A stretch of 59,449 nt of DNA from a virus (lineage: Duplodnaviria; Caudoviricetes): positions 1 to 59,449 of the IMG/VR virus record IMGVR_UViG_3300020202_000084; one strand, written 5' to 3'. Below the pieces are notes generated by a model. It was not told the origin of the DNA. It searched no databases and worked only from the letters and a program-made list of their open reading frames with translations. A program made the position numbers and the translations under genes. Of the stretch, positions 50,601 to 59,449 are shown piece after piece (position 1 is the first letter of the stretch; every line of letters begins with the position of its first letter).

Positions 50601-51102
50601 ACGCAAGGGCACCGGAGCGGAGATATTGAACTCCAGCCCCTTGCTCTCATCGTGGCCCGCTATCTCCCTCGGGCCTCTAGAACTGAAGGGAGCACTTCTA
50701 TCCCGCATTACTCCCGCTGCGGACGCCCCAGAAGCGCTAACGGGGATAATAGCGCTTACCATGAGGCATTTGCGTCATAAGACGCCTTGTTATTTATCCA
50801 GAAGACCGCCAGCACCGAAGAGCTTCCCCCAGCCCTGCACCAGCAGACGATAGGGCCATTCCCATTCCATAGGAGCCGCCCCAGAAGTAACTAGCTTGGG
50901 CCAAGCCGCCTTAGCGACATAGACAACGCCAAGCATAAGAAGAAAACCAACCATCTATCTAACCCACTCTTGCTTATCGCCGCATTCATCGCACTGGAGG
51001 TATCCCTCCCAATCGCAATAAATGCTGTTTTCCTGATATCGACCTTTGCAGCCCGGCTTAAAACACTTATAACCTCTGTCGCATTTTCGTTTAGGGGCAG
51101 AC

Positions 51103-51348
51103 TTATTCCTCACCATTAAACCCTAATACATCCAACTTAGCCTGCTCTAGAAACCAGAGCATCTTATATCGATCACCTGTGGAGGACGCTAAGAACGCAC
51201 CCCCATCCTCTCTAACCCCGATAAGAACGATAGTATCAAGCTTTTCGTTCTGAATGATGGCAGAGAGTATATCGTTTACAGGGACATCTTCGATAATACC
51301 GACCTTAGGAAACTCAATAACGTTATCTTCGGTCATTAGATGCCTCAT
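51103..51348 (-). CDS. hypothetical protein
   Basis: NVIEFP...V.IG....G...ASS...LW.LE.AK pattern. Confidence 0.65.
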   Translation of the reverse strand: MRHLMTEDNVIEFPKVGIIEDVPVNDILSAIIQNEKLDTIVLIGVREDGGAFLASSTGDRYKMLWFLEQAKLDVLGFNGEE

Positions 51349-51520
51349 CTAGTTGACGGATGATATCGGCATCCATCTCTCTACCCCAGCGCTCTAGCTT
51401 TTCCTTGTGAGCTTCAAAGAGCTTCTGTCGATATATCTTCTCGAAATCTAACTGAGCATTCTCTTGGAGTATCCGCTCTAGTAGCTTCTCATTACCAGTA
51501 ACGAAGACAGTATAAGCCAT
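51323..51520 (-). CDS. hypothetical protein (first late-arm gene)
   Basis: SD AAGGA then ATG. Confidence 0.55.
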   Translation of the reverse strand: MAYTVFVTGNEKLLERILQENAQLDFEKIYRQKLFEAHKEKLERWGREMDADIIRQLDEASNDRR

Positions 51521-51660
51521 AATATCCTTAGAGACTCCCCCCTCCCCCATAGAAAGCTTCTAGAAGCGCTCTATAGTGTTCCGATATATCTTCTATCTAT
51601 CTGCTAACAAAGAACAGAAGAAACCCCCAAAAAGGGGAAAAGAAGAAAGAAACTGTTTAC

Positions 51661-51695
51661 ATATAGATTAAGACTAAAAGTAGGTGGTTTGTGAC
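51661..51695 (-). promoter_or_regulatory. phage-sigma (late) promoter
   Basis: GTCACA-N12-TTAGTCTTA-ATCTATAT heading the whole - strand arm; AT-rich UP tract. Confidence 0.7.
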
Positions 51696-51751
51696 AAAGA
51701 ATTTTAAATAATTTTAAATTATTTTTAATTCCGAATACCATTAGTGTTATT

Positions 51752-51984
51752 TATCAATTACTTAGAAGAGTCCAACTTTAGTAGAAATTTTTAGAAAAAG
51801 TCTGTAGAGCTAGCAATAACGCATGGAGCGCTATTTGTCCCCCCCGTAGTCCTCCTGTAGCGCGCTAGGTAGTCGCCTGGCAGTTTTCCATAATGCATAT
51901 TATGCGTCCGGGAATAGCGTTTGATTTCAATATGTTAGCACACACCTAGTCCTATTAGCATTCTCTAGCGTTATCAATGACTTA
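51752..51984. other. probable genome terminus/packaging region with IHF-like boxes
   Basis: WATCAANNNNTTR matches at 51752 and 51972 (near match 51925), C7 run at 51839, palindrome 51889-51904; between the divergent arms. Confidence 0.45.
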
Positions 51985-52218
51985 CTAGGTGCTACTAGAG
52001 TGCTACTTAGTCTGCTCGCGCGTATGCATGTAGGGAGGAGTAGGGGGCTATTTAGTCGCTACTCCTCTGGTAACACTCTGGTAGCTCTCTGAAGCCTTCC
52101 GAGCATCATCTAGGCAGGTATGAGCGTAAATAGGGCTTGACATGTCCTAACTAGCTCAGGCAATAATGCAGCGTTTAACGAAACTGATACGCTCTAACCC
52201 AGGAAGGAAAACTGCCAA

Positions 52219-52722
52219 ATGACTACCTACGCTAACCTAGCAGCTGCCCACAGTGTGCTTCATAGCGCCATGATGGACCTTACCAATCACATCAAGGCAG
52301 AGACCAATCCAGAGGCTATCGCGGTCCTGTCAGCGGCACATACGGCACTCTATAAGGCTTCCGGGCGCGTGTTCGATACAGCTAGCAGAAGGAATAGAAC
52401 TATGACTAAGGATCAAATCGAGCGGACGGTAGAACGCAGAATGAACGCTTTAGACTATCAGCTGATAACCAAGAACACTCTGACACAGGCTCAATACGAT
52501 ATTGAGGTAAAGAAACTGAATGACTGGGCAGAATTGCAGTATGCCAAGCTGAACAAGCCCGCCAAGCGCTATCAGGTAGAAAATACGACTAGTGTTTTCG
52601 ATTTCTCCAACCACTATTCAGTGATAGACACTTGGACTAAACAGTGTAAAGGCGACTACGCTACCGAGTCACAGGCCCAAGCTAGAGCCCGCACTCTCAA
52701 TAGCAGGAACGGAGGGAAATAG
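52219..52722 (+). CDS. early hypothetical protein
   Basis: SD AGGAAGG; first + strand gene. Confidence 0.65.
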   Translation: MTTYANLAAAHSVLHSAMMDLTNHIKAETNPEAIAVLSAAHTALYKASGRVFDTASRRNRTMTKDQIERTVERRMNALDYQLITKNTLTQAQYDIEVKKLNDWAELQYAKLNKPAKRYQVENTTSVFDFSNHYSVIDTWTKQCKGDYATESQAQARARTLNSRNGGK

Positions 52723-52724
52723 AC

Positions 52725-52961
52725 ATGGTATGGAAAACACTCCGCTATGACGCCATAGAGGCTTTCAAGCATTCATGGCCTTGTCATGGCCTACCGGATA
52801 ACTTGCACTCCCTATCATGCGACTTTGCCAGCAATGGTGATTTAGTCGATATAGAGGCATATGACAGTGACGGTAGACTGCTAGACACTCACGACTTTGA
52901 CGGACCAGCCCTGTTAGCTCTTACCCAAGACTGTCAGGCTAGTGGCGATACATCCGACTAG
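52725..52961 (+). CDS. early hypothetical protein
   Basis: SD GGAGG; F..SWPC..L, NGDLVD motif. Confidence 0.7.
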   Translation: MVWKTLRYDAIEAFKHSWPCHGLPDNLHSLSCDFASNGDLVDIEAYDSDGRLLDTHDFDGPALLALTQDCQASGDTSD

Positions 52962-52983
52962 CACTCTCCCAACACCCGCCAGC

Positions 52984-53017
52984 AAGCCCCTTAGAGCGCT
53001 CTGAGGGGCTTTCTTAT
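52984..53017 (+). terminator. terminator (repeat copy 1)
   Basis: AAGCCCCTTAGA-GCGC-TCTGAGGGGCTT plus U-tract. Confidence 0.8.
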
Positions 53018-53294
53018 TGCCCTTAGCGAGCGTAGCTAGCGCTTTCGGTCTAGTCCAAACGCAGTACAACCCGTACGTGTACAGCTGCCCTGTGTGACTC
53101 GCAGAAAGAGTCAACCTGTTCTTAAGCAATACTGCCTATACCTGTGGATAGGTGACAGCACGTCACAGCAGATAGGCCGGAAGATATAGGTAAGAGTTGC
53201 CTAGTAATAGCGTGACACTAAGTCACGACTAAGACTATGACTTATCTAGACTAATTTAGTCGTGACATGTCGTAACAGAATGTGGATAAGTCAA

Positions 53295-53332
53295 TTGACA
53301 GGGAGACTGAATAGGAGTAATGGTTAACCTGT
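53295..53332 (+). promoter_or_regulatory. sigma-70 promoter with ACAGG-N25-CCTGT operator-like flanks
   Basis: TTGACA-17-TAATGG; same architecture as 58746-58783. Confidence 0.65.
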
Positions 53333-53349
53333 GACATGGCAGTGTCACA

Positions 53350-53620
53350 TAGAGGCTAGAGCCTCACAGGGTGGCGGGTTCCCATAACTCGCAAAAAGAC
53401 GGGGACCAAAGGACTGGCAGGTCCGATGATCCCCTAGCCAAGCAACCGGGACACTTTTGGGAAAGCTTCCGTCACAAGGCTGGCAAGGGTCTAAACCTTT
53501 TCAGTCTAAAAGACAAGAGGGAATCAGGCTCAGTCATGCGGGAATAATCGCCCGTAATGCTGAAGCCTGTTTTCATTCATAAGGGGCAAACAATAGCGTC
53601 CTAGTTCTTGGCCTGTATGA
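53350..53620 (+). ncRNA. candidate structured RNA/leader
   Basis: ORF-free with consecutive stems (GCGGGTT/AACTCGC, GGGGA/TCCCC, CAGGCT/AGCCTG, closing ACAGG/CCTGT). Confidence 0.45.
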
Positions 53621-53632
53621 AAGGCTAAGGCT

Positions 53633-54448
53633 ATGACTATCCGTTCCTCTGAGACCTTTAGGTCTTCTCTGTCTTGCATGTTCACAGTGCAAGGCTTCAA
53701 TTACGATTGGATTGAGGCTAACAACCATCCTAGCCATACGTTCCCTAGGCTTGAACTACCTTCAAGCGGCTTTGAAAGTCTTCCTAGGAGCTATCAAGAG
53801 GCTTTGAAGCAAGAAGCCTATAAGGCGCTAGCGGCTAAAATGGCCACTAGTGCAGCTGAGATTGCCATTATGGCAAAGCAGCACAGGCTCGCATTGTCGG
53901 CTGAAGCTACCTTTGTGCGAGACACTGCGAACAGGCCCGACACTATCCCCAGCAACATGGAAGCAATGCGGGTTAGTCACTGGATTGAACCCAAGCGGGT
54001 GTTCATTCCGTTGCCTGCTAAGGCCGATGCTTCTCTGAAAGAGCTAGTCAAGGCTAACAGCAAGCCTGACGGGTTCATGATGGACCTACCCGGCACTCCA
54101 CAAGGCAAGGTGCTGGGCACTCTCAGCACAGAGGCTTGGCGCAAGGGGGAGGTGAATAGGATTGCTATTCACAACCCTGAGCCTCTACCGCCCTATCAGG
54201 TTCCCCAGCGTCCTATGACGGCCAGCGAACAGCAGGTTGCGGAATGGCTGGCACAGCCGGGACGCACTGTCACAACGTCTAAGCAGTCCAGCCGCCTTGC
54301 CAAGCTTATGGCGAAATTCTGGGAGCATGGGGACGGGAAGGACGGATTACAGCCTGTCATGGCGTCTAATGCGGCGCACAGGGCATTGGGCCGGATTGCC
54401 AAGGCGGAACGCTATAACGCTACTCCGCTTGCCGTTGCGGCACAGTAG
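53633..54448 (+). CDS. early hypothetical protein
   Basis: 271-aa ORF. Confidence 0.65.
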   Translation: MTIRSSETFRSSLSCMFTVQGFNYDWIEANNHPSHTFPRLELPSSGFESLPRSYQEALKQEAYKALAAKMATSAAEIAIMAKQHRLALSAEATFVRDTANRPDTIPSNMEAMRVSHWIEPKRVFIPLPAKADASLKELVKANSKPDGFMMDLPGTPQGKVLGTLSTEAWRKGEVNRIAIHNPEPLPPYQVPQRPMTASEQQVAEWLAQPGRTVTTSKQSSRLAKLMAKFWEHGDGKDGLQPVMASNAAHRALGRIAKAERYNATPLAVAAQ

Positions 54449-54552
54449 GGGGAGGGGCAAGCTATGAAACGGATTGCCCTAACCCTGTTCTGTGGTGTCG
54501 TTCTATGGGGAGGTATTTGCCTAGGATGGTATCTGGCCTTTGGGGGGACACT

Positions 54553-54765
54553 ATGACCGTCCTACAGGCTGACATATCGCTCTATTGGAAGTGTTCCAAC
54601 GTCCTGAGGGGACACAGCTACACAGTAGCTCCCACGGTTGCTACTGACTTGCTGGACACTATCGCCAGAAACAACCCTAACACCCGCCTTGCCAAGCTTT
54701 CCCTGAGCAATGGCGAAAGCATGTGGAAGGAAGGGCAGGACGCTAAGGTTATCTCTATCGCCTAG
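54553..54765 (+). CDS. early hypothetical protein
   Basis: SD GGGGGA then ATG; followed by a terminator. Confidence 0.55.
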   Translation: MTVLQADISLYWKCSNVLRGHSYTVAPTVATDLLDTIARNNPNTRLAKLSLSNGESMWKEGQDAKVISIA

Positions 54766-54783
54766 CGACTAAGCTTGACTAAC

Positions 54784-54821
54784 GGGGACTAGCGGGTTTA
54801 TAGCCTGCTAGTCCCTTTTCT
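54784..54821 (+). terminator. rho-independent terminator
   Basis: GGGACTAGCGGGT/GCCTGCTAGTCCC plus TTTTCT. Confidence 0.75.
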
Positions 54822-54834
54822 ATGGAGGTAGCTA

Positions 54835-55057
54835 ATGGCTAGCAAATTCCAACACAGACACTGTAAAGCGATTGCCGAAATTCTCATGAATAATACGCCA
54901 CTAGCTCAAGACGGCGAAACAGCTATGCGGCAATGGGCGTATACTGTGTAGGGAAATGGCGGGAATGTTCTTGAGGGATAATCCGCGGTTTAATCGTGAT
55001 AGGTTCATAGCGGCTTGCAATGGTGACTATCAGAACGGCAGGGACAAGCCACGCTAG
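54835..55057 (+). pseudogene. frameshifted small phage gene (DNPRF..RF..AC family)
   Basis: SD GGAGG; frame stops at TAG 54949; conserved-looking C-terminus FLRDNPRFNRDRFIAAC continues in the +1 frame. Confidence 0.6.
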
Positions 55058-55087
55058 CGCCCCCTATCCCTTTCCTCCCTAACCCCC

Positions 55088-55125
55088 AAAGCCCCTTAGA
55101 GCGTTTCTGAGGGGCTTTTTCTTTT
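55088..55125 (+). terminator. terminator (repeat copy 2)
   Basis: Near-identical to the hairpin at 52984-53012. Confidence 0.8.
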
Positions 55126-55441
55126 CCCCTAGTCCAATACGTCCAAATAGCTCAAAAGCCGCTGGCGGGCTTCTATTGCGGATTGGCAGCTATTCCGACT
55201 TAGCAGCCTAGAGCTAGTCACAGCTGAAAACCTAGAATTATTCTAATTCTAAGTAAGAGGTTCTTACATTAACAGCTTGAACTATTCCAATAACCTGGCT
55301 AATCCATTGATATTACGTAGTTATTTTACTCTGGCTAATCGCAGTTAGTTTTGAGATACTAGTGACTGTTCGGAAGGCGGGTAGCAGAGAGTAAGGGGCT
55401 AGCCTTCCAGCCCTTCCTACCGTTTATCGGAGGTGACAGAG

Positions 55442-55684
55442 ATGAAACTTGGCAAGCGCGAACGTCAAGCTAGGCGCGAATTAATGCGTGCTAGTGAGGC
55501 AATCCGGGCGCGTATTGCTAGGGCAGAAAACCCTGGCATTGACGCGGCGGCATGTTCTGGGCGCGTATCTAGTCCGCTGGCCGCTTTGTGGCCTAGCCAA
55601 TCGGCAAAGCCTAGAGTTCCAGCCGGATGGACTACTGAGCAGGCTAGAAAAGCCGCTCATTTGGGCGGCAAGGTTTACGCCTAG
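55442..55684 (+). CDS. early hypothetical basic protein
   Basis: SD GGAGG. Confidence 0.55.
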   Translation: MKLGKRERQARRELMRASEAIRARIARAENPGIDAAACSGRVSSPLAALWPSQSAKPRVPAGWTTEQARKAAHLGGKVYA

Positions 55685-55714
55685 GCCCATTGCCCCATTG
55701 CGGCAATGTGAGAC

Positions 55715-56135
55715 TTAGCTGTTAGTGCGGGATTAGTGGCAGATTTTCCCGCACTAGCAGATACGTCTATCGTATCCCTTTAGATTTGTCCCGTGGCAGC
55801 GGGCATAGATACCTGTGTTTTGGGCGGATAGCTCATTACATGGCCTATTGGGTGTCGCTGTAATAAATACAGGCAGGCAGCCTGTATAATCCGGGGGAGG
55901 CTGATTAACGACGGCTAGGCTTATTGCTTAGGAAGAATTGTTAATCCCCTCTAAATGGTAGGTCGGGTGAGTTGTCTTACAAACAACTCTAGCCGAGAAA
56001 CCCACGCAAACCAGCAACCGCCTTTAGTGGCGCGTAGCTGAGGGTTGGACCGGCTCATAGCTAGGGCCTTGATTGGTTCCTAGCTGAATATGCCACTAAT
56101 ACCTCTGGCTATGGTTGCCTAGTAGCGGCAAACTA
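55715..56135 (+). ncRNA. candidate structured RNA (~420 nt)
   Basis: ORF-free with many stems; loop ATTAGTGGCA (55732) complementary to TGCCACTAAT (56091). Confidence 0.5.
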
Positions 56136-56187
56136 ATTGACACATATTTTCCCTAGGTTTTGACTAGTGGCGCGGAAAGGATGCGCC

Positions 56188-56397
56188 ATGCTCAGTCCAG
56201 ATAAACTGCGAATTTACCGCAGTCACGGTGAACACTACCAGGCTTTGCAGCAAGAGTTGGCCAAAGCCAAGGCTCACATCATGGAATCCGAAATCGAAGC
56301 TGGGTTGCAAGTTGTAACTCAGACTGCACGGGGTTATCTCAAGCGTACAACAATCGCCTTGATTGGCCGTATGGCTATCAGGGACTACAGCCGATAA
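56188..56397 (+). CDS. small early protein enclosed by a 25-bp inverted repeat
   Basis: SD AAGGA; IR 56149-56173/56408-56432. Confidence 0.6.
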   Translation: MLSPDKLRIYRSHGEHYQALQQELAKAKAHIMESEIEAGLQVVTQTARGYLKRTTIALIGRMAIRDYSR

Positions 56398-56487
56398 ACT
56401 TTCAATGGCGCCACTAATCTAAACCTAGGGAACAGCAAGCTAATTGCAATCTGCTAGCCCTTCTCACAGCTAGAAGGAATAGCAGAA

Positions 56488-57057
56488 ATGGAACGTGCGA
56501 TTTTTGACAAAAAGCGGGAATCTTTCCGCAAGTCCATCACTCGGACCAAGGATATGGCCATTGAGTTGGCCGTGGCCGCTCTTGCGCAGTTTAAGGCGCA
56601 TGGCGACCTGTCCTATGTCCAAGACTTCTATGGCGACCTGCGTGGTGCGGGCAAGAACGTGATTCGTTCGGCTCCGTTCCTCGCCTGGCTCACCACCTTT
56701 GCTCCGGTGGAGTTGAAGGAGAACAAGTTCGTGAAGGATCACGACTTGGCCGCCAAGCTCAAGTGGGACGAGAAGGACGCCGAAGGCAACTATCCGGCGC
56801 GTGAGGCGTTGTTCGCCAAGGCGCAGGAGAAGTCGTTCTTCGATTTCGCCCCTGAGCAGGTGGCGCAGAACTTCAAGGCCGGTGATTTGGTCGAAGCGGT
56901 CGAGAAGCTCATCAAGCGTTACGAGAACAGCAAGCATTTCGTGGCTGCCGATGAGGAAGCCAAGAACACGCTTGTTCGGCTGAAGGACGTGGCCAAGACG
57001 CTGCGTGCTCCGGCTGCCAACAGCAATGGCTCCCTGCCGATTGAGCAGGCTGCCTAG
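56488..57057 (+). CDS. conserved-type early protein enclosed by a 25-bp inverted repeat
   Basis: Strong GC3 codon bias, HGD...R..F.AW...F.P pattern; IR 56436-56460/57177-57201. Confidence 0.8.
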   Translation: MERAIFDKKRESFRKSITRTKDMAIELAVAALAQFKAHGDLSYVQDFYGDLRGAGKNVIRSAPFLAWLTTFAPVELKENKFVKDHDLAAKLKWDEKDAEGNYPAREALFAKAQEKSFFDFAPEQVAQNFKAGDLVEAVEKLIKRYENSKHFVAADEEAKNTLVRLKDVAKTLRAPAANSNGSLPIEQAA

Positions 57058-57219
57058 TTACCCTCACCAGGCATCTTAGGGTCGCGCCCTGAGCGACGAG
57101 TGAAATCGTGACAAGACGGGAGAGACCGTCACATCCATTGCACCCGAAAGGGGACTGGGCTATCCGGCCCCTAATTGGGCTAGCAGATTGCACTTGGCTT
57201 GTAGATGATGGCTTTCTCA

Positions 57220-58170
57220 TTAAGGGCTGCTAAACAGCCTTATAAGCCAAGACCCTGATAGGAAATAGAACATGGGCAGCTACCGGCCCGTCAAGGCGAC
57301 TGTAACGGGTAGCACGGCCTAGCTGTAATGGAGCAGCTTATGCGAAGTAACTAATCCCTGATTTGTTATAGCTCAGATAGTTGTAAATTGAATCGCTGCT
57401 TTTGTTTGTGAGGCACCCGAGAGGAAACTTTGGACACTCTCGGGTGTTCTCTTGGTCATTCTCGCCAACACAGCTGGTAGCGTTTGCGTAACTCCACAAA
57501 CGCAAGTAACACAGATAGGGACTATAGCCGTTTCCAGTGGAAACCGATTCTGGGTAATAGCCCAAATGCTAGCTTCTGTGGCTGTGTTGGCGTGAGTGAC
57601 TAGCTATGCAACGGCAGTGAACCCGTTTGAGTCGGAAGCTGACCTAGATAGAAAGCGCTCTAGTCACTCTTCCTGTTAGGGAACGAATGCCGATGGGACT
57701 ACATGGCAAAAGAAGTCTCATCACCCTTAGTCGTTCCCTAGCTTTTGTGCCCGATGGTCCCACACCCAGAGTGTGACGAATGGACTGCTTTTATGTAAAG
57801 CTAGGCGATCTAGAGCGCACCTAGCCATCGGGCTCTTATTATGCGCAGGTGCCAGTGAGGCTGGCTTAAATCCAGATGACGCCGATGGAGCCTGCGAGGA
57901 TGACAACACAGGGTATTTACTCCTGCACACTTGGCTAGCGCGCCTCGTGTTCAACTGGTAATACGTCGTGGTATCCAGAAAAGCCGGTTATACTCGTGCC
58001 GGATACGTTAGGTGTGCAGGCGTAAGCATCCACTAGGGTGGCTGAGCGGGAAATGCCATCTAAATCATGCCTATTAACAACCGGCATAGCCCTAGTGTCG
58101 CGGTGCCCTCCGAGCCAAATGGGGTTGAGGGTTAAATGACTGATCTGATTCGCTAGTCAGCCGCAAGTCT
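57220..58170 (+). ncRNA. large ornate ncRNA candidate (GOLLD-like)
   Basis: ~950 nt without a credible ORF, successive multistem junctions and pseudoknot-type complementarity, directly 5' of a tRNA. Confidence 0.6.
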
Positions 58171-58171
58171 T

Positions 58172-58247
58172 TGGGATGTAGCTCAGCAGGTAGAGCAGCA
58201 GACTGTTACTCTGTAGGTCCTAGGTTCGAGCCCTAGCTTCCCAGCCA
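58172..58247 (+). tRNA. tRNA-Asn (GTT)
   Basis: Cloverleaf: TGGGATG/CTTCCCA, D-arm GCTC/GAGC, GCAGA-CTGTTAC-TCTGT, TTCGA T-loop, G73, encoded CCA. Confidence 0.95.
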
Positions 58248-58250
58248 AAT

Positions 58251-58284
58251 AAAAAGGGGCACCTGTTAGGGCACCCCTCTTGTT
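58251..58284. terminator. probable bidirectional terminator
   Basis: A-tract, AGGGG...CCCCT stem, T-tract between the convergent tRNA and wHTH gene. Confidence 0.6.
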
Positions 58285-58364
58285 AGCTGTTCCTCAGAAT
58301 GACGCCAGAGGATTTAATGGGAGCAGGCGTATGCCTGTAGAAAAGGTGATAAAACTCCCAGCAG

Positions 58365-58721
58365 CTATTCCACCACTGCCACCACCATGTCATTGGTGAC
58401 AGCAAGCTCCCCGATCTTCATGGGCTTGCCCTGAGGTTTTCCCTCATTGTCCATGATGATGAGACGCTTGCCCGTCAGAGCCTCGTAGGAGCCCGTAGGG
58501 ACCTTCTTCTCCGGGAAAGGCTGGATAGCCATTGCTTGGTCCGCAAGCACCAGACGGCCACCAAAACCGCGTCCCGGCACCACTACGCCGCTCTTGAGGG
58601 CGGTCTTCTTAATCAGGTCCCATTCCTTGTCCTTCACCCCGAGAGCCTGCTTCAGATCGGGGTTGTTGGCCGAGCCTCCGAGTTCCTTCAGCTTGGCAAC
58701 CAAGTTCTCAACAGTAGCCAT
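58365..58721 (-). CDS. winged-helix DNA-binding protein, candidate repressor
   Basis: Strong SD AGGAGGT, own sigma-70 promoter, only credible - strand gene in the early arm; LGGSA.N..LK.ALG...GRG.GG. Confidence 0.75.
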
Positions 58722-58745
58722 TATTCACCTCCTATGTGTTGGCTT

Positions 58746-58783
58746 ACAGGTTGCCATATAGGCTAGTCGGGAGTCCCTGTCAA
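58746..58783 (-). promoter_or_regulatory. sigma-70 promoter of the wHTH gene
   Basis: TTGACA-17-TATATG, ACAGG-N25-CCTGT. Confidence 0.7.
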
Positions 58784-58798
58784 CTAGGAGTTTTAAAG

Positions 58799-58969
58799 AT
58801 GTTGTATTGGGCTTTGCTTTTCTTAGTTATTGCCATTGTTTCAGGTATCTTTGGATTTGGGGGTATCTCTGTGACTGTCGCTAATATCGCCCAAATTATG
58901 TTTTTTGTTTTCTTGGTCTTATTCATTGTCAGTCTGTTCTTCGGCTGGCGTGCAGGCAATTTGGATTAA
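58799..58969 (+). CDS. DUF1328/UPF0391 (YtjA-like) small membrane protein
   Basis: ML.WAL.FL.IAI...IFGFGGI....A.IA.I.F..F..LF..SL. Confidence 0.85.
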
Positions 58970-58973
58970 AATT

Positions 58974-59222
58974 ATGACCAAATCTATTTCCATCCTCTCC
59001 CGTGCTGAACTTGCCACCCGTGCGGCTAAGTATGCCGATTCAGTTAAGTGGAGAGGTGGCCCTAATTTCATCTTCTGTTCCCGCTTTGGCTCCAAGAAGA
59101 GCAATAGCGGTGGTGGAGGTAGGGGACGTGCCCATTATTCCTGTGGCACCCCTAGGGCCTACATAGGGGACATCCGTAAGGAACTCCATGCCAGCTGGGT
59201 AGCTAGGTCTGGGAGGCACTGA
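58974..59222 (+). CDS. hypothetical basic protein
   Basis: ORF coupled to the next gene. Confidence 0.5.
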   Translation: MTKSISILSRAELATRAAKYADSVKWRGGPNFIFCSRFGSKKSNSGGGGRGRAHYSCGTPRAYIGDIRKELHASWVARSGRH

Positions 59223-59449
59223 TGTTTGTCGTGTGGTTCATAGAGCAAAACAGTTGGCTGAAGTATAGAGAATACTCCAAACTAGATAACGCTTTAGATG
59301 CTGCGAAATTGGACGCACTCTATGGCACGTCAGATCGAGTCATTGTTACTAATTCTAAAACTACGCCTCCAGATTTTCTTAACGCTGGCGAGTTGTTGGT
59401 TAAGTTCTGTGCAGAGGAGATGAGAGATGCTGCGAGACAACAAAGGGAA
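59222..59449 (+). CDS. hypothetical protein spanning the circular junction (continues 128-172)
   Basis: SD GGAGG, open frame through the overlap to TAA at 170-172. Confidence 0.6.
   Translation, partial: MFVVWFIEQNSWLKYREYSKLDNALDAAKLDALYGTSDRVIVTNSKTTPPDFLNAGELLVKFCAEEMRDAARQQRE
59323..59449. repeat. 127-bp terminal direct repeat, copy 2
   Basis: Identical to 1-127. Confidence 0.9.

What the first reader, a model, noticed from the sequence alone, without database searches (positions are those of the whole stretch)
57220..58170. ~950-nt giant ornate ncRNA (GOLLD-like) abutting tRNA-Asn
Seen: successive domains closed by GGCACCCGAGAG/CTCTCGGGTGTT, CGCCAACACAGC/GCTGTGTTGGCG (57463/57581), GAGTGACTAG/CTAGTCACTC, TAGGGAACGA/TCGTTCCCTA, GCCCGATGG/CCATCGGGC, CGCAGG/CCTGCG, GGATG/CATCC, CCTGCACAC/GTGTGCAGG and ACTAGGG/CCCTAGT. 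There is also cross-domain GCCGGTT/AACCGGC complementarity (pseudoknot). Established: GOLLD and ROOL are large phage-associated, tRNA-adjacent RNAs of unknown function that form multimeric cages. Inference: a GOLLD relative or a new class; I cannot confirm family membership by eye.
Basis: partly seen in the sequence, partly recalled or inferred. Interest (0 to 1): 0.8.

Follow-up and report, generated by a model that had tools for sequence, protein, structure and literature searches.

The report
Hairpin-string non-coding RNA before phage tRNA-Asn
A soil phage keeps about 1.1 kb of gene-free, unusually hairpin-rich sequence just upstream of its own tRNA-Asn gene; it is probably a non-coding RNA made of a string of separately closed hairpin modules, it matches no catalogued RNA family (not GOLLD or ROOL), and no relatives could be fetched to prove selection on its fold.

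Summary
Window 57058-58171 is the largest ORF-free stretch of this complete 59.4-kb soil phage genome and shows no codon signal in any frame. It holds 8 perfect inverted repeats of 9 bp or more, against 0.34 expected from shuffles. It ends 1 nt before a good tRNA-Asn(GTT).

The GOLLD interpretation is not supported. Rfam 15 gives no GOLLD, ROOL or other large-RNA hit, even at E<=10.

The architecture looks modular rather than ornate. About ten hairpin domains follow each other, each closed by its own local stem. No pseudoknot is supported, and the first ~190 nt of the claimed RNA are not significantly structured.

The same "beads on a string" pattern continues upstream. Two adjacent 25-nt long-range duplexes, the strongest in the genome, bracket the two preceding ORFs.

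My best reading is one early + strand transcript, cut at long duplexes by RNase III and at the tRNA by RNase P, which releases a ~1-kb multi-hairpin RNA or smaller pieces of it. Its function is unknown.

No homologue could be fetched, so covariation is untested. Two short metagenome contigs hint at relatives with a different module content. This is a candidate new large phage RNA of moderate interest, and it is unproven.

The parts
56149..56173 (+). 5' arm of a 25-nt long-range duplex (partner 56408-56432) that brackets the SD and 69-aa ORF 56188-56397
   Evidence: 25 nt, 92% complementary, the joint strongest long-range inverted repeat of the genome. It forms in both the MFE and the centroid fold of 56140-57260.
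56408..56432 (+). 3' arm of the first ORF-bracketing duplex
56436..56460 (+). 5' arm of the second 25-nt long-range duplex (partner 57177-57201). It brackets the 189-aa ORF 56488-57057 (phrog_1448) and starts 3 nt after the first duplex ends.
   Evidence: 25 nt, 92% complementary; BLAST E 3.7e-4 within the genome. It forms in the MFE and centroid of 56140-57260, but not in the MFE of the longer 56400-58300 fold.
57177..57201 (+). 3' arm of the second ORF-bracketing duplex. Inferred RNase III site and therefore the inferred 5' boundary of the released non-coding RNA. It overlaps the next hairpin by 9 nt, so the two pairings are alternatives.
57193..57251 (+). Branched hairpin closed by CUUGGCUUGUA/UAUAAGCCAAG
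   Evidence: (I9): fold of 57177-57260 is -27.7 kcal/mol, z -1.94.
57252..57411 (+). Weakly structured, AT-richer linker. No significant fold and no recognisable promoter.
   Evidence: 57300-57412 has z +0.45; no sigma-70-like site.
57412..57448 (+). Module D1: 11-12-bp hairpin with a 13-nt loop
   Evidence: -20.1 kcal/mol, z -4.82, 0 of 200 shuffles as good..
57452..57603 (+). Module D2: a 12-bp perfect stem, extended to about 22 bp by a 10-bp stem with 3 G-U pairs, closing a three-way interior with two hairpins
   Evidence: -62.0 kcal/mol, z -5.57; all helices have P>=0.9; a 293-nt contig of another soil study is identical over 57489-57603 and then diverges.
57594..57669 (+). Module D3: 10-bp perfect closing stem with a poorly structured interior. 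Its 5' strand competes with the D2 extension.
   Evidence: (z -1.96).
57675..57742 (+). Module D4: 12-bp closing stem, internal loop, then a 9-bp upper stem
   Evidence: -29.9 kcal/mol, z -4.47.; a 580-nt contig of run X1 matches 57683-57734 with 1 substitution and 1 insertion.
57749..57833 (+). Module D5: 9-bp closing stem around a three-way interior
   Evidence: -31.6 kcal/mol, z -3.19; the X1 contig is laid with a joint 57734->57864 that skips this module (24-nt side; weak).
57844..57896 (+). Module D6: 7-bp closing stem around two small hairpins
   Evidence: z -2.00. P>=0.9.
57911..58031 (+). Module D7/D8: 14-bp stem (3 G-U) plus outer 5- and 4-bp helices around a multi-hairpin interior
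   Evidence: -50.9 kcal/mol, z -3.21, against -41.8 and z -1.78 on the - strand.
58031..58097 (+). Module D9: 8-bp closing stem with a weak interior
   Evidence: z -0.24, so not significant on its own.
58100..58165 (+). Module D10: weak two-hairpin element just before the tRNA
   Evidence: -23.4 kcal/mol, z -1.49.
58172..58247 (+). tRNA-Asn(GTT) with encoded CCA. Its RNase P site (58171/58172) is the inferred 3' boundary of the non-coding RNA.
   Evidence: (66.8 bits, E 2.3e-12).
58251..58290 (-). Intrinsic terminator of the convergent 118-aa gene: a 12-bp stem with G-U pairs followed by UUUUUAUUU on the - strand. It blocks antisense transcription into the region and is only a weak hairpin on the + strand.
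   Evidence: - strand -27.9 kcal/mol, z -3.71, 0 of 200 shuffles as good; + strand -17.8 kcal/mol, z -1.04.

Best explanation
The stretch is the non-coding tail of the phage's last rightward early transcription unit. That unit runs roughly from behind the terminator at 55088-55118 to the hairpin at 58251-58290. Its RNA is built as a string of separately closed modules:
- a 482-nt structured spacer (55685-56166);
- two ORFs, each enclosed by its own 25-bp long-range duplex;
- about ten ORF-less hairpin modules (57412-58165);
- tRNA-Asn.

I infer that host RNase III cuts the long duplexes (about 22-25 bp) and that RNase P cuts at 58171/58172. This would free a stable multi-hairpin RNA of up to about 970 nt (about 57202-58171), or several smaller hairpin RNAs.

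Shown:
- the non-coding status;
- the excess of closed stems;
- the linkage to the tRNA;
- the ORF-bracketing duplexes;
- the absence of any Rfam family match.

Inferred:
- transcription on the + strand;
- the two processing events;
- stability of the product.

Guessed:
- that the product acts in trans, for example as a sponge or decoy for host RNA-binding or RNA-cutting factors, or as a scaffold around the phage tRNA, rather than only as a cis stabiliser.

It is not a member of GOLLD or ROOL.
For: Non-coding:
- It is the largest ORF-free gap of the genome, and best-frame codon log-odds are negative against +0.25 to +0.45 in genes.

Structure beyond chance:
- 8 perfect inverted repeats of >=9 bp against 0.34 +/- 0.60 in 200 shuffles.
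- Module z-scores are -4.82, -5.57, -4.47, -3.19 and -3.21 for D1, D2, D4, D5 and D7/8.
- The core 57400-58171 folds at -295.0 kcal/mol, z -4.25.

Modular layout:
- Confident helices (P>=0.9) are almost all local closing stems of consecutive domains.

The pattern continues upstream:
- The strongest long-range inverted repeats of the genome are 56149-56173/56408-56432 and 56436-56460/57177-57201. They are 25 nt, 92% complementary and 3 nt apart.
- Each encloses one ORF with its SD, and both form in the MFE and centroid of 56140-57260.
- Region 55685-56166 folds at -186.1 kcal/mol, z -4.58 on +, against -155.4, z -3.07 on -.

Length fits RNase III:
- An idealised E. coli substrate is 22 bp, and RNase III processes the polycistronic T7 early precursor at five signals (PMC3867540, passages read).

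Strand by context:
- The tRNA and all flanking early genes are on +.
- The convergent gene ends in a terminator that is strong on the - strand only.
- 9 of 12 segments are more stable on +, 1 ties and 2 favour -.
- The whole 1114 nt folds at -431.6 on + against -407.2 on -.

Hint of relatives with swapped modules:
- One contig from another soil study is identical over 57489-57603 and then diverges inside D3.
- One contig of run X1 keeps D4 at about 96% identity with unlike flanks.
Against: - No homologue of the region was obtained, so there is no covariation and no proof of selection on any helix.
- No expression data exist.
- Thermodynamics does not call the strand. The z-score of the core is -4.25 on + and -4.58 on -. 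Confident pairs number 119 on + (10 G-U) and 156 on - (8 G-U).
- Most closing stems are perfect Watson-Crick, which fits DNA palindromes equally well.
- No promoter was recognised: 0 sigma-70-like sites in 52000-59449, against 5.6 expected.
- No terminator separates the 189-aa gene from the region, so a discrete RNA depends entirely on the inferred processing.
- The second long-range duplex is absent from the MFE of the longer 56400-58300 fold.
- D3, D9 and D10 are not significant on their own.
- The host, and therefore its RNase III specificity, is unknown.
Confidence: 0.5

Rival explanations
1. One integrated giant ornate RNA of a new class. On this reading the modules pack through tertiary or quaternary contacts, such as loop-loop contacts or multimers, into a single functional particle. 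It would be functionally analogous to GOLLD and ROOL, and co-expressed with or acting on the phage tRNA.
For: - The context matches what is described for GOLLD and ROOL: phage-encoded, next to a tRNA, 0.6-1 kb, highly structured (passages of 10.1101/2024.12.08.627333 and PMC5737381).
- Many hairpin loops are large (13 nt in D1 and D4) and none is a GNRA or UNCG tetraloop, which leaves them free for contacts (reading of the sequence).
- 1.1 kb is a high price for a 59-kb phage if only cis hairpins were needed (inference).
Against: - There is no Rfam hit, even at E<=10.
- No enclosing helix, multistem core or supported pseudoknot appears.
- The whole-core MFE (-295) exceeds the sum of the separate modules (about -255 to -265) by no more than long random RNAs usually gain.
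- The two relatives' contigs suggest that modules are swapped or lost, which is easier to reconcile with independent modules.
- There is no covariation data.
Confidence: 0.2
2. A purely cis-acting untranslated region. On this reading it is a long structured 3' UTR of the 189-aa gene plus a 5' leader of tRNA-Asn. Its hairpins only protect the early mRNAs and the pre-tRNA from exonucleases or set processing order, with no trans function and no stable product.
For: - No terminator or recognisable promoter lies between the 189-aa gene and the region.
- All other intergenic parts of this early region are also structured on the + strand.
- The ORF-bracketing duplexes show that RNA stems are used here in the service of mRNAs.
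Against: - Protection needs one hairpin, not ten modules over 750 nt.
- It is the largest gene-free stretch in a compact genome.
- Parts of it are kept identical or nearly identical in relatives' contigs whose flanks differ.
Confidence: 0.15
3. A DNA-level element, such as a replication origin, a packaging or recombination site, or cruciform-forming palindromes, rather than an RNA.
For: - The closing stems are mostly perfect Watson-Crick.
- The fold statistics are as good on the - strand.
Against: - Every inverted repeat has a different sequence, so there are no iterons and no shared binding motif.
- Loops of 13-106 nt are too long for easy cruciform extrusion (inference).
- Several stems are extended only by G-U pairs on the + strand, namely the D2 extension and D8 with 3 G-U each.
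- The cumulative GC-skew turning points and the AT-rich divergent region lie at about 27 kb and about 51.6-53 kb, not here.
Confidence: 0.08
4. Non-functional remains, such as decayed genes or tRNAs, or several unrecognised very small genes.
For: - Small ORFs exist, for example 57773-57961 (62 aa, GTG) and 57452-57595 (47 aa, TTG).
- Phage early regions are rich in tiny genes (general knowledge).
Against: - There is no codon signal in any frame.
- None of the ORFs of >=30 aa on the + strand within 57058-58171 starts with ATG.
- Decay would erode, not create, eight perfect stems.
- No tRNA-like hit other than tRNA-Asn appears, even at E<=10.
Confidence: 0.05

Closest known systems
GOLLD RNA (Rfam family; large ornate RNA of phages and prophages)
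   Same: It is phage-encoded, lies directly beside a tRNA gene on the same strand, is 0.8-1 kb long, is densely base-paired and has no known function (description in 10.1101/2024.12.08.627333, passages).
   Different: There is no match to the Rfam model, even at E<=10, so GOLLD's universally conserved 3' region is not there. The fold here is a row of locally closed hairpins, not a junction-rich ornate fold. Nothing is known about multimers.
ROOL RNA (Rfam family; about 581 nt, six multistem junctions, three pseudoknots)
   Same: It shares the phage and tRNA neighbourhood and the large size (PMC5737381, passages).
   Different: There is no match to the Rfam model. No supported pseudoknot and no comparable set of multistem junctions appears in single-sequence folds.
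RNase III processing signals of polycistronic phage early transcripts (T7) and the long-range stems that bracket 16S and 23S rRNA in rRNA operons
   Same: Duplexes of about two helical turns punctuate a polycistronic early transcript. Here the duplexes pair the two flanks of a unit, as in rRNA operons (PMC3867540 passages). The rRNA-operon comparison is from general knowledge.
   Different: T7 signals are local hairpins between genes, not stems that enclose whole ORFs. Here about 750 nt of ORF-less modules follow. Cleavage is not shown and the host is unknown.
Small stable RNAs co-transcribed with phage tRNAs (T4 'species 1 and 2' RNAs in the tRNA cluster; recalled, not checked in a paper here)
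   Same: Non-coding structured RNA sits in one transcription unit with phage tRNA and is released by tRNA-processing enzymes.
   Different: The T4 RNAs are single RNAs of about 120-140 nt. This stretch is about 1 kb with about ten modules.

Membership tests
GOLLD | Significant match to the Rfam covariance model (sequence plus structure), carried by the universally conserved 3' region | tested here: not met
   cmscan of the whole window at gathering thresholds found only tRNA. On 56900-58400, both strands, E<=10, there was no GOLLD hit.
GOLLD | Encoded in a phage or prophage, often next to tRNA genes | tested here: met
   The window is a complete virus record with terminal repeats and phage genes. 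tRNA-Asn starts 1 nt after the stretch.
GOLLD | Homo-oligomeric (14-mer) nanocage | not testable with these tools
   This needs cryo-EM or mass photometry (feature taken from 10.1101/2024.12.08.627333).
ROOL | Significant match to the Rfam covariance model | tested here: not met
   no hit.
ROOL | [quoted passage not shown] | tested here: inconclusive
   Single-sequence folds give consecutive locally closed modules. The one proposed pseudoknot is at chance level. Without an alignment, tertiary pairings cannot be excluded.
RNase III-processed polycistronic phage transcript | Duplexes of about 22 bp (two helical turns) at unit boundaries | tested here: met
   There are two 25-nt duplexes with 23-24 of 25 positions paired. 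The D2 closing stem is 12 + 10 bp.
RNase III-processed polycistronic phage transcript | Actual cleavage at these duplexes | not testable with these tools
   There is no RNA data. Only DNA contigs of three runs were available.
New structured RNA class (Breaker/Weinberg-type criterion) | Homologues with covarying base pairs | not testable with these tools
   All searches of the held collections returned no homologue of the region. The contigs of the 189-aa protein's relatives could not be fetched.

The most novel reading that the evidence does not exclude
The stretch is the founding member of an undescribed class of about 1-kb phage RNAs. It would be excised from an early transcript between an RNase III duplex and the RNase P site of a phage tRNA. 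Its ten hairpin modules would assemble, alone or as multimers, into a particle that works with the phage tRNA during takeover, a soil-phage counterpart of GOLLD and ROOL. It would also belong to a so far undescribed way of organising a phage operon, in which every unit, ORFs included, is enclosed by its own long-range RNA stem.
Probability: 0.2. Interest if true: 0.8.

Novelty: new variant of a known kind. Interest (0 to 1): 0.45.

Why it matters
Large structured RNAs next to phage tRNAs (GOLLD, ROOL) are among the least understood bacterial and phage RNAs. Every independent family with the same context sharpens the question of what such RNAs do for a phage.

This case adds two testable features:
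- predicted ends, an RNase III duplex at about 57177-57201 and the RNase P site at 58171/58172, which would define the RNA;
- neighbouring ORFs that are each enclosed by a 25-bp long-range stem, an arrangement known from rRNA operons but not, to my knowledge, from phage mRNAs.

If the stretch is only a cis-acting spacer, it is an ordinary, if extreme, example of structured phage intergenic RNA.

Tried and rejected
1. Rfam. The whole window at gathering thresholds, 56900-58400 at E<=10 and 55000-57300 at E<=5 gave only tRNA-Asn and sub-threshold chance hits: mir-3617, SpR20 and BjrC68, plus suhB/mmgR at 24.5 bits on the 55088 terminator.

2. GenBank phages. blastn 'distant' with 57058-58260 gave 270 records, all matching only the tRNA part. 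tblastn with the 189-aa protein gave no match.

3. Relatives through proteins.
- The 189-aa and 118-aa proteins alone found nothing in viral contigs.
- The alignment A1 of 7 homologues found one 30%-identical locus in viral contigs, L003, with no comparable gap and no tRNA. It found none in metagenome contigs and none in genome contigs.
- The terminase gave 8 loci of <=50% identity. Four records were searched whole with the region, 0 of 4 matched, and L012 has a different organisation.
- The glutamine amidotransferase found none.

4. DNA probes from the window.
- The tRNA probe found 1 unrelated tRNA cluster.
- The first D2 probe found two metagenome contigs, both 21-27-nt chance matches inside high-GC coding DNA.
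- The D4 probe and two further D2 probes found nothing.

5. Sequencing runs. No RNA holder was listed.

Earlier findings of this scan show no look-alike stretch.

7. The 189-aa neighbour.
- Pfam, NCBIfam and PADLOC gave nothing; PHROGs gave phrog_1448, unknown function.
- The PDB profile search gave only E 0.086.
- The AlphaFold model has pLDDT 77. It has no PDB fold match at E<=0.001. In BFVD it matches only uncharacterised podovirus proteins.
- One of those proteins is from Pseudomonas phage TL. There the tRNA-Asn sits near the genome end, before the terminase small subunit gene, which is a different context.

8. Considered and dropped as chance: short similarities of D4 and D10 to the tRNA's T-arm and 3' end and to the terminator loop (12-14 nt with 1-2 mismatches). 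About 6 such pairs are expected in 1.9 kb by my estimate.

9. No paralogy was found between this region and the other structured intergenic regions.

The restricted one is noisy, because 200-nt windows cut modules.
Full report
WHAT THE WINDOW IS. The window is a complete virus record of 59,449 bp with direct terminal repeats. It encodes a T7-type portal/head-tail connector, a large terminase, a primase-helicase, a DNA polymerase, an integrase and an amidoligase/glutamine-amidotransferase cluster. Its closest cultured relatives are only 23-53% identical in protein. Two soil-metagenome runs hold the stretch whole and may be its source. A third run, from another study, holds a small part. The host is unknown.

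THE OBSERVATION.
- 57058-58171 holds 8 perfect inverted repeats of >=9 bp with loops <=150 nt. 200 dinucleotide-preserving shuffles give 0.34 +/- 0.60, maximum 3.
- It holds 4 of >=10 bp, against 0.07 +/- 0.27 in shuffles.
- 4 of the 12 such >=10-bp repeats of the whole genome lie here.
- The median of 105 same-sized windows is 0.
- The stretch lies within the largest interval of the genome without an ORF of >=80 aa on either strand (57221-58364, 1144 nt).
- Its best-frame codon log-odds are negative (mean -0.14, maximum 0.035), against 0.25-0.45 for neighbouring and late genes.
- tRNA-Asn(GTT) with encoded CCA follows at 58172-58247 (66.8 bits).

Three details do not hold up. The 5-bp GGATG/CATCC pair and the 7-nt 'pseudoknot' are at chance level: shuffles already give 27.6 +/- 6.3 complementary 7-mer pairs. 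The first ~190 nt of the claimed RNA are not significantly folded (z -1.64 and +0.45). The strongly folded core is 57412-58031.

ANATOMY.
- Folded one by one on the + strand, the modules score: D1 -20.1 kcal/mol (z -4.82), D2 -62.0 (-5.57), D3 -23.5 (-1.96), D4 -29.9 (-4.47), D5 -31.6 (-3.19), D6 -20.0 (-2.00), D7/8 -50.9 (-3.21), D9 -17.2 (-0.24), D10 -23.4 (-1.49).
- The 772-nt core folds at -295.0 kcal/mol, z -4.25 with 20 shuffles.
- In the partition function of 57190-58175, the helices with pair probability >=0.9 are almost all local closing stems and inner hairpins of consecutive modules.
- I found no enclosing helix and no supported pseudoknot.
- The 5' strand of the D3 stem can instead extend the D2 stem to about 22 bp through G-U pairs.
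- The picture is a row of separately closed modules separated by 2-10 nt, not a junction-rich 'ornate' fold. Single-sequence folding cannot exclude tertiary contacts.

STRAND. Thermodynamics alone does not decide it.
- 9 of 12 segments are more stable on +, 1 ties and 2 favour -.
- The whole 1114 nt gives -431.6 on + against -407.2 on -.
- However, the z-score of the core is -4.25 on + and -4.58 on -, and the - strand has more confident pairs (156 against 119).

Context decides for +. The tRNA and all flanking early genes are on +. The convergent 118-aa gene ends in a hairpin that is a strong intrinsic terminator only on the - strand: -27.9 kcal/mol, z -3.71, followed by UUUUUAUUU, against -17.8 and z -1.04 on +. 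That terminator should stop antisense transcription before the tRNA.

SURROUNDINGS. The three strongest long-range inverted repeats of the whole genome lie in the early region.
- 56149-56173/56408-56432 and 56436-56460/57177-57201 are each 25 nt and 92% complementary, and lie 3 nt apart.
- Each encloses one ORF together with its Shine-Dalgarno sequence: the 69-aa ORF 56188-56397 and the 189-aa ORF 56488-57057.
- Both duplexes form in the MFE and in the centroid of 56140-57260.
- The second is lost in the MFE of the longer 56400-58300 fold, as happens easily in long folds.
- Upstream of both, 55685-56166 is another ORF-free region of 482 nt. It folds at -186.1 kcal/mol (z -4.58) on + against -155.4 (z -3.07) on -.
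- + strand terminators stand at 52984-53011, 54784-54816 and 55088-55118. None lies between 55119 and the tRNA.

So the last early transcription unit (about 55.1-58.3 kb) is more than half non-coding, and it is organised throughout as stem-closed units.

MECHANISM.
- Duplexes of 22-25 bp are what bacterial RNase III cuts. The idealised E. coli substrate is 22 bp, and the enzyme processes the polycistronic T7 early precursor at five signals (PMC3867540, passages read). Stems pairing the two flanks of a unit are the rule in rRNA operons (general knowledge).
- RNase P must cut at 58171/58172 to mature the tRNA (general knowledge).
- I therefore infer that the non-coding RNA is released between about 57190-57201 and 58171, about 970 nt. 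It may be cut further at the 22-bp D2 stem.
- The trans function is a guess. Ten modules over 750 nt are far more than cis protection needs, which points to a product that acts as a decoy, sponge or scaffold. Nothing here tests that.

COMPARATIVE EVIDENCE. This is the gap in the case.
- The 189-aa protein has six relatives at 47-52% identity on contigs of up to 59,084 nt, so sister phages exist.
- None of them is in the collections I could scan, and the tool that fetches encoding contigs is closed.
- All other routes failed.
- The only glimpse comes from contigs of public runs. A 293-nt contig from another soil study is identical over 57489-57603 and then runs on unlike, starting inside the D3 loop.
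- A 580-nt contig of run X1 (which may be the window's own source sample), at a fifth of the depth, matches D4 (57683-57734) with one substitution and one insertion. Its flanks are unlike, and it is laid with a joint to 57864 that would skip D5. The second side of that joint is only 24 nt, so the joint itself is weak.
- These contigs show that relatives with partly conserved, partly replaced modules exist. They fit modular evolution, but they are not covariation.

COMPARISON WITH KNOWN FAMILIES.
- GOLLD and ROOL share the context: phage or prophage, near tRNAs, large, function unknown (10.1101/2024.12.08.627333 and PMC5737381, passages).
- Membership fails on the defining test. There is no covariance-model match, even at E<=10.
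- A survey of IMG/VR structured RNAs reports candidates of only 29-151 nt (PMC10690425, passages). I could not see its supplementary tables, which might list individual hairpins of this phage.
- Earlier notes of this scan describe similar gene-free, hairpin-dense stretches next to phage tRNAs. One is a ~1.1-kb case in another soil phage, and one was resolved as swappable hairpin modules. None is a sequence look-alike of this one, and I did not test them.

VERDICT. The GOLLD reading is not supported. 'New class' remains open for lack of homologues. I rate it a candidate new large, modular phage non-coding RNA linked to tRNA-Asn, with confidence 0.5 in the processed multi-hairpin transcript model. 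I give 0.2 to a single integrated GOLLD-like particle and the rest to cis-only, DNA-level or junk explanations. I set interest at 0.45. The ORF-bracketing stems and the predicted ends make it experimentally approachable, but nothing yet shows selection on the fold or expression.

Noticed in passing
window 56149-56173/56408-56432 and 56436-56460/57177-57201: Two adjacent 25-nt, 92% complementary long-range duplexes each enclose a whole ORF with its ribosome-binding site (69 aa and 189 aa). They are the strongest long-range inverted repeats of the genome. They resemble rRNA-operon processing stems applied to mRNAs.
   Followed up: partly
window 51866-51889/52206-52229: The third-strongest long-range inverted repeat (24 nt, 88%). 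Its 3' arm covers the Shine-Dalgarno region and ATG of the 167-aa ORF at 52219, and its 5' arm lies 316 nt upstream in the divergent control region. It may act as a translational trap if both arms are in one transcript.
   Followed up: no
window 55685-56166: A second ORF-free, strongly folding region of 482 nt with clear + strand preference (-186.1 kcal/mol, z -4.58, against -155.4, z -3.07). It has no Rfam match and no similarity to 57058-58171.
   Followed up: partly
window 53130-53350: A cluster of GTGACA/TGTCAC-type palindromes in the 670-nt gap before the 271-aa gene, including an 11-bp perfect inverted repeat at 53222-53232/53256-53266. These look like operator sites of a DNA-binding regulator. 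53501-53700 folds with z -9.07 on the + strand (12 shuffles).
   Followed up: no
window 52984-53011 and 55088-55118: Two + strand intrinsic terminators share a nearly identical stem (AAGCCCCTTAGAGCG...). The second gives a sub-threshold hit (24.5 bits, E 0.031) to the alphaproteobacterial suhB/mmgR sRNA model, probably on the terminator alone.
   Followed up: no
window 51000-59000: The tetranucleotide CTAG is 2-4 times denser in the non-coding parts of the early region (18 in 55001-56000, 12 in 57001-58000) than in most of the genome (0-8 per kb). CTAGCT occurs 4 times in 57058-58171 against 0.35 expected.
   Followed up: no
window 51640-51800: A very AT-rich stretch (the 51-52 kb bin has GC 0.408) sits between the leftward integrase arm and the rightward early genes, next to the cumulative GC-skew minimum. 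It is a candidate replication origin or divergent promoter region.
   Followed up: no
window 52000-59449: No sigma-70-like promoter match at all was found where shuffles give 5.6 +/- 2.7. The early promoters of this phage may follow another consensus.
   Followed up: no
window 58736-58969: A small membrane protein of family DUF1328 (50.1 bits) is encoded just beyond the convergent 118-aa gene.
   Followed up: no
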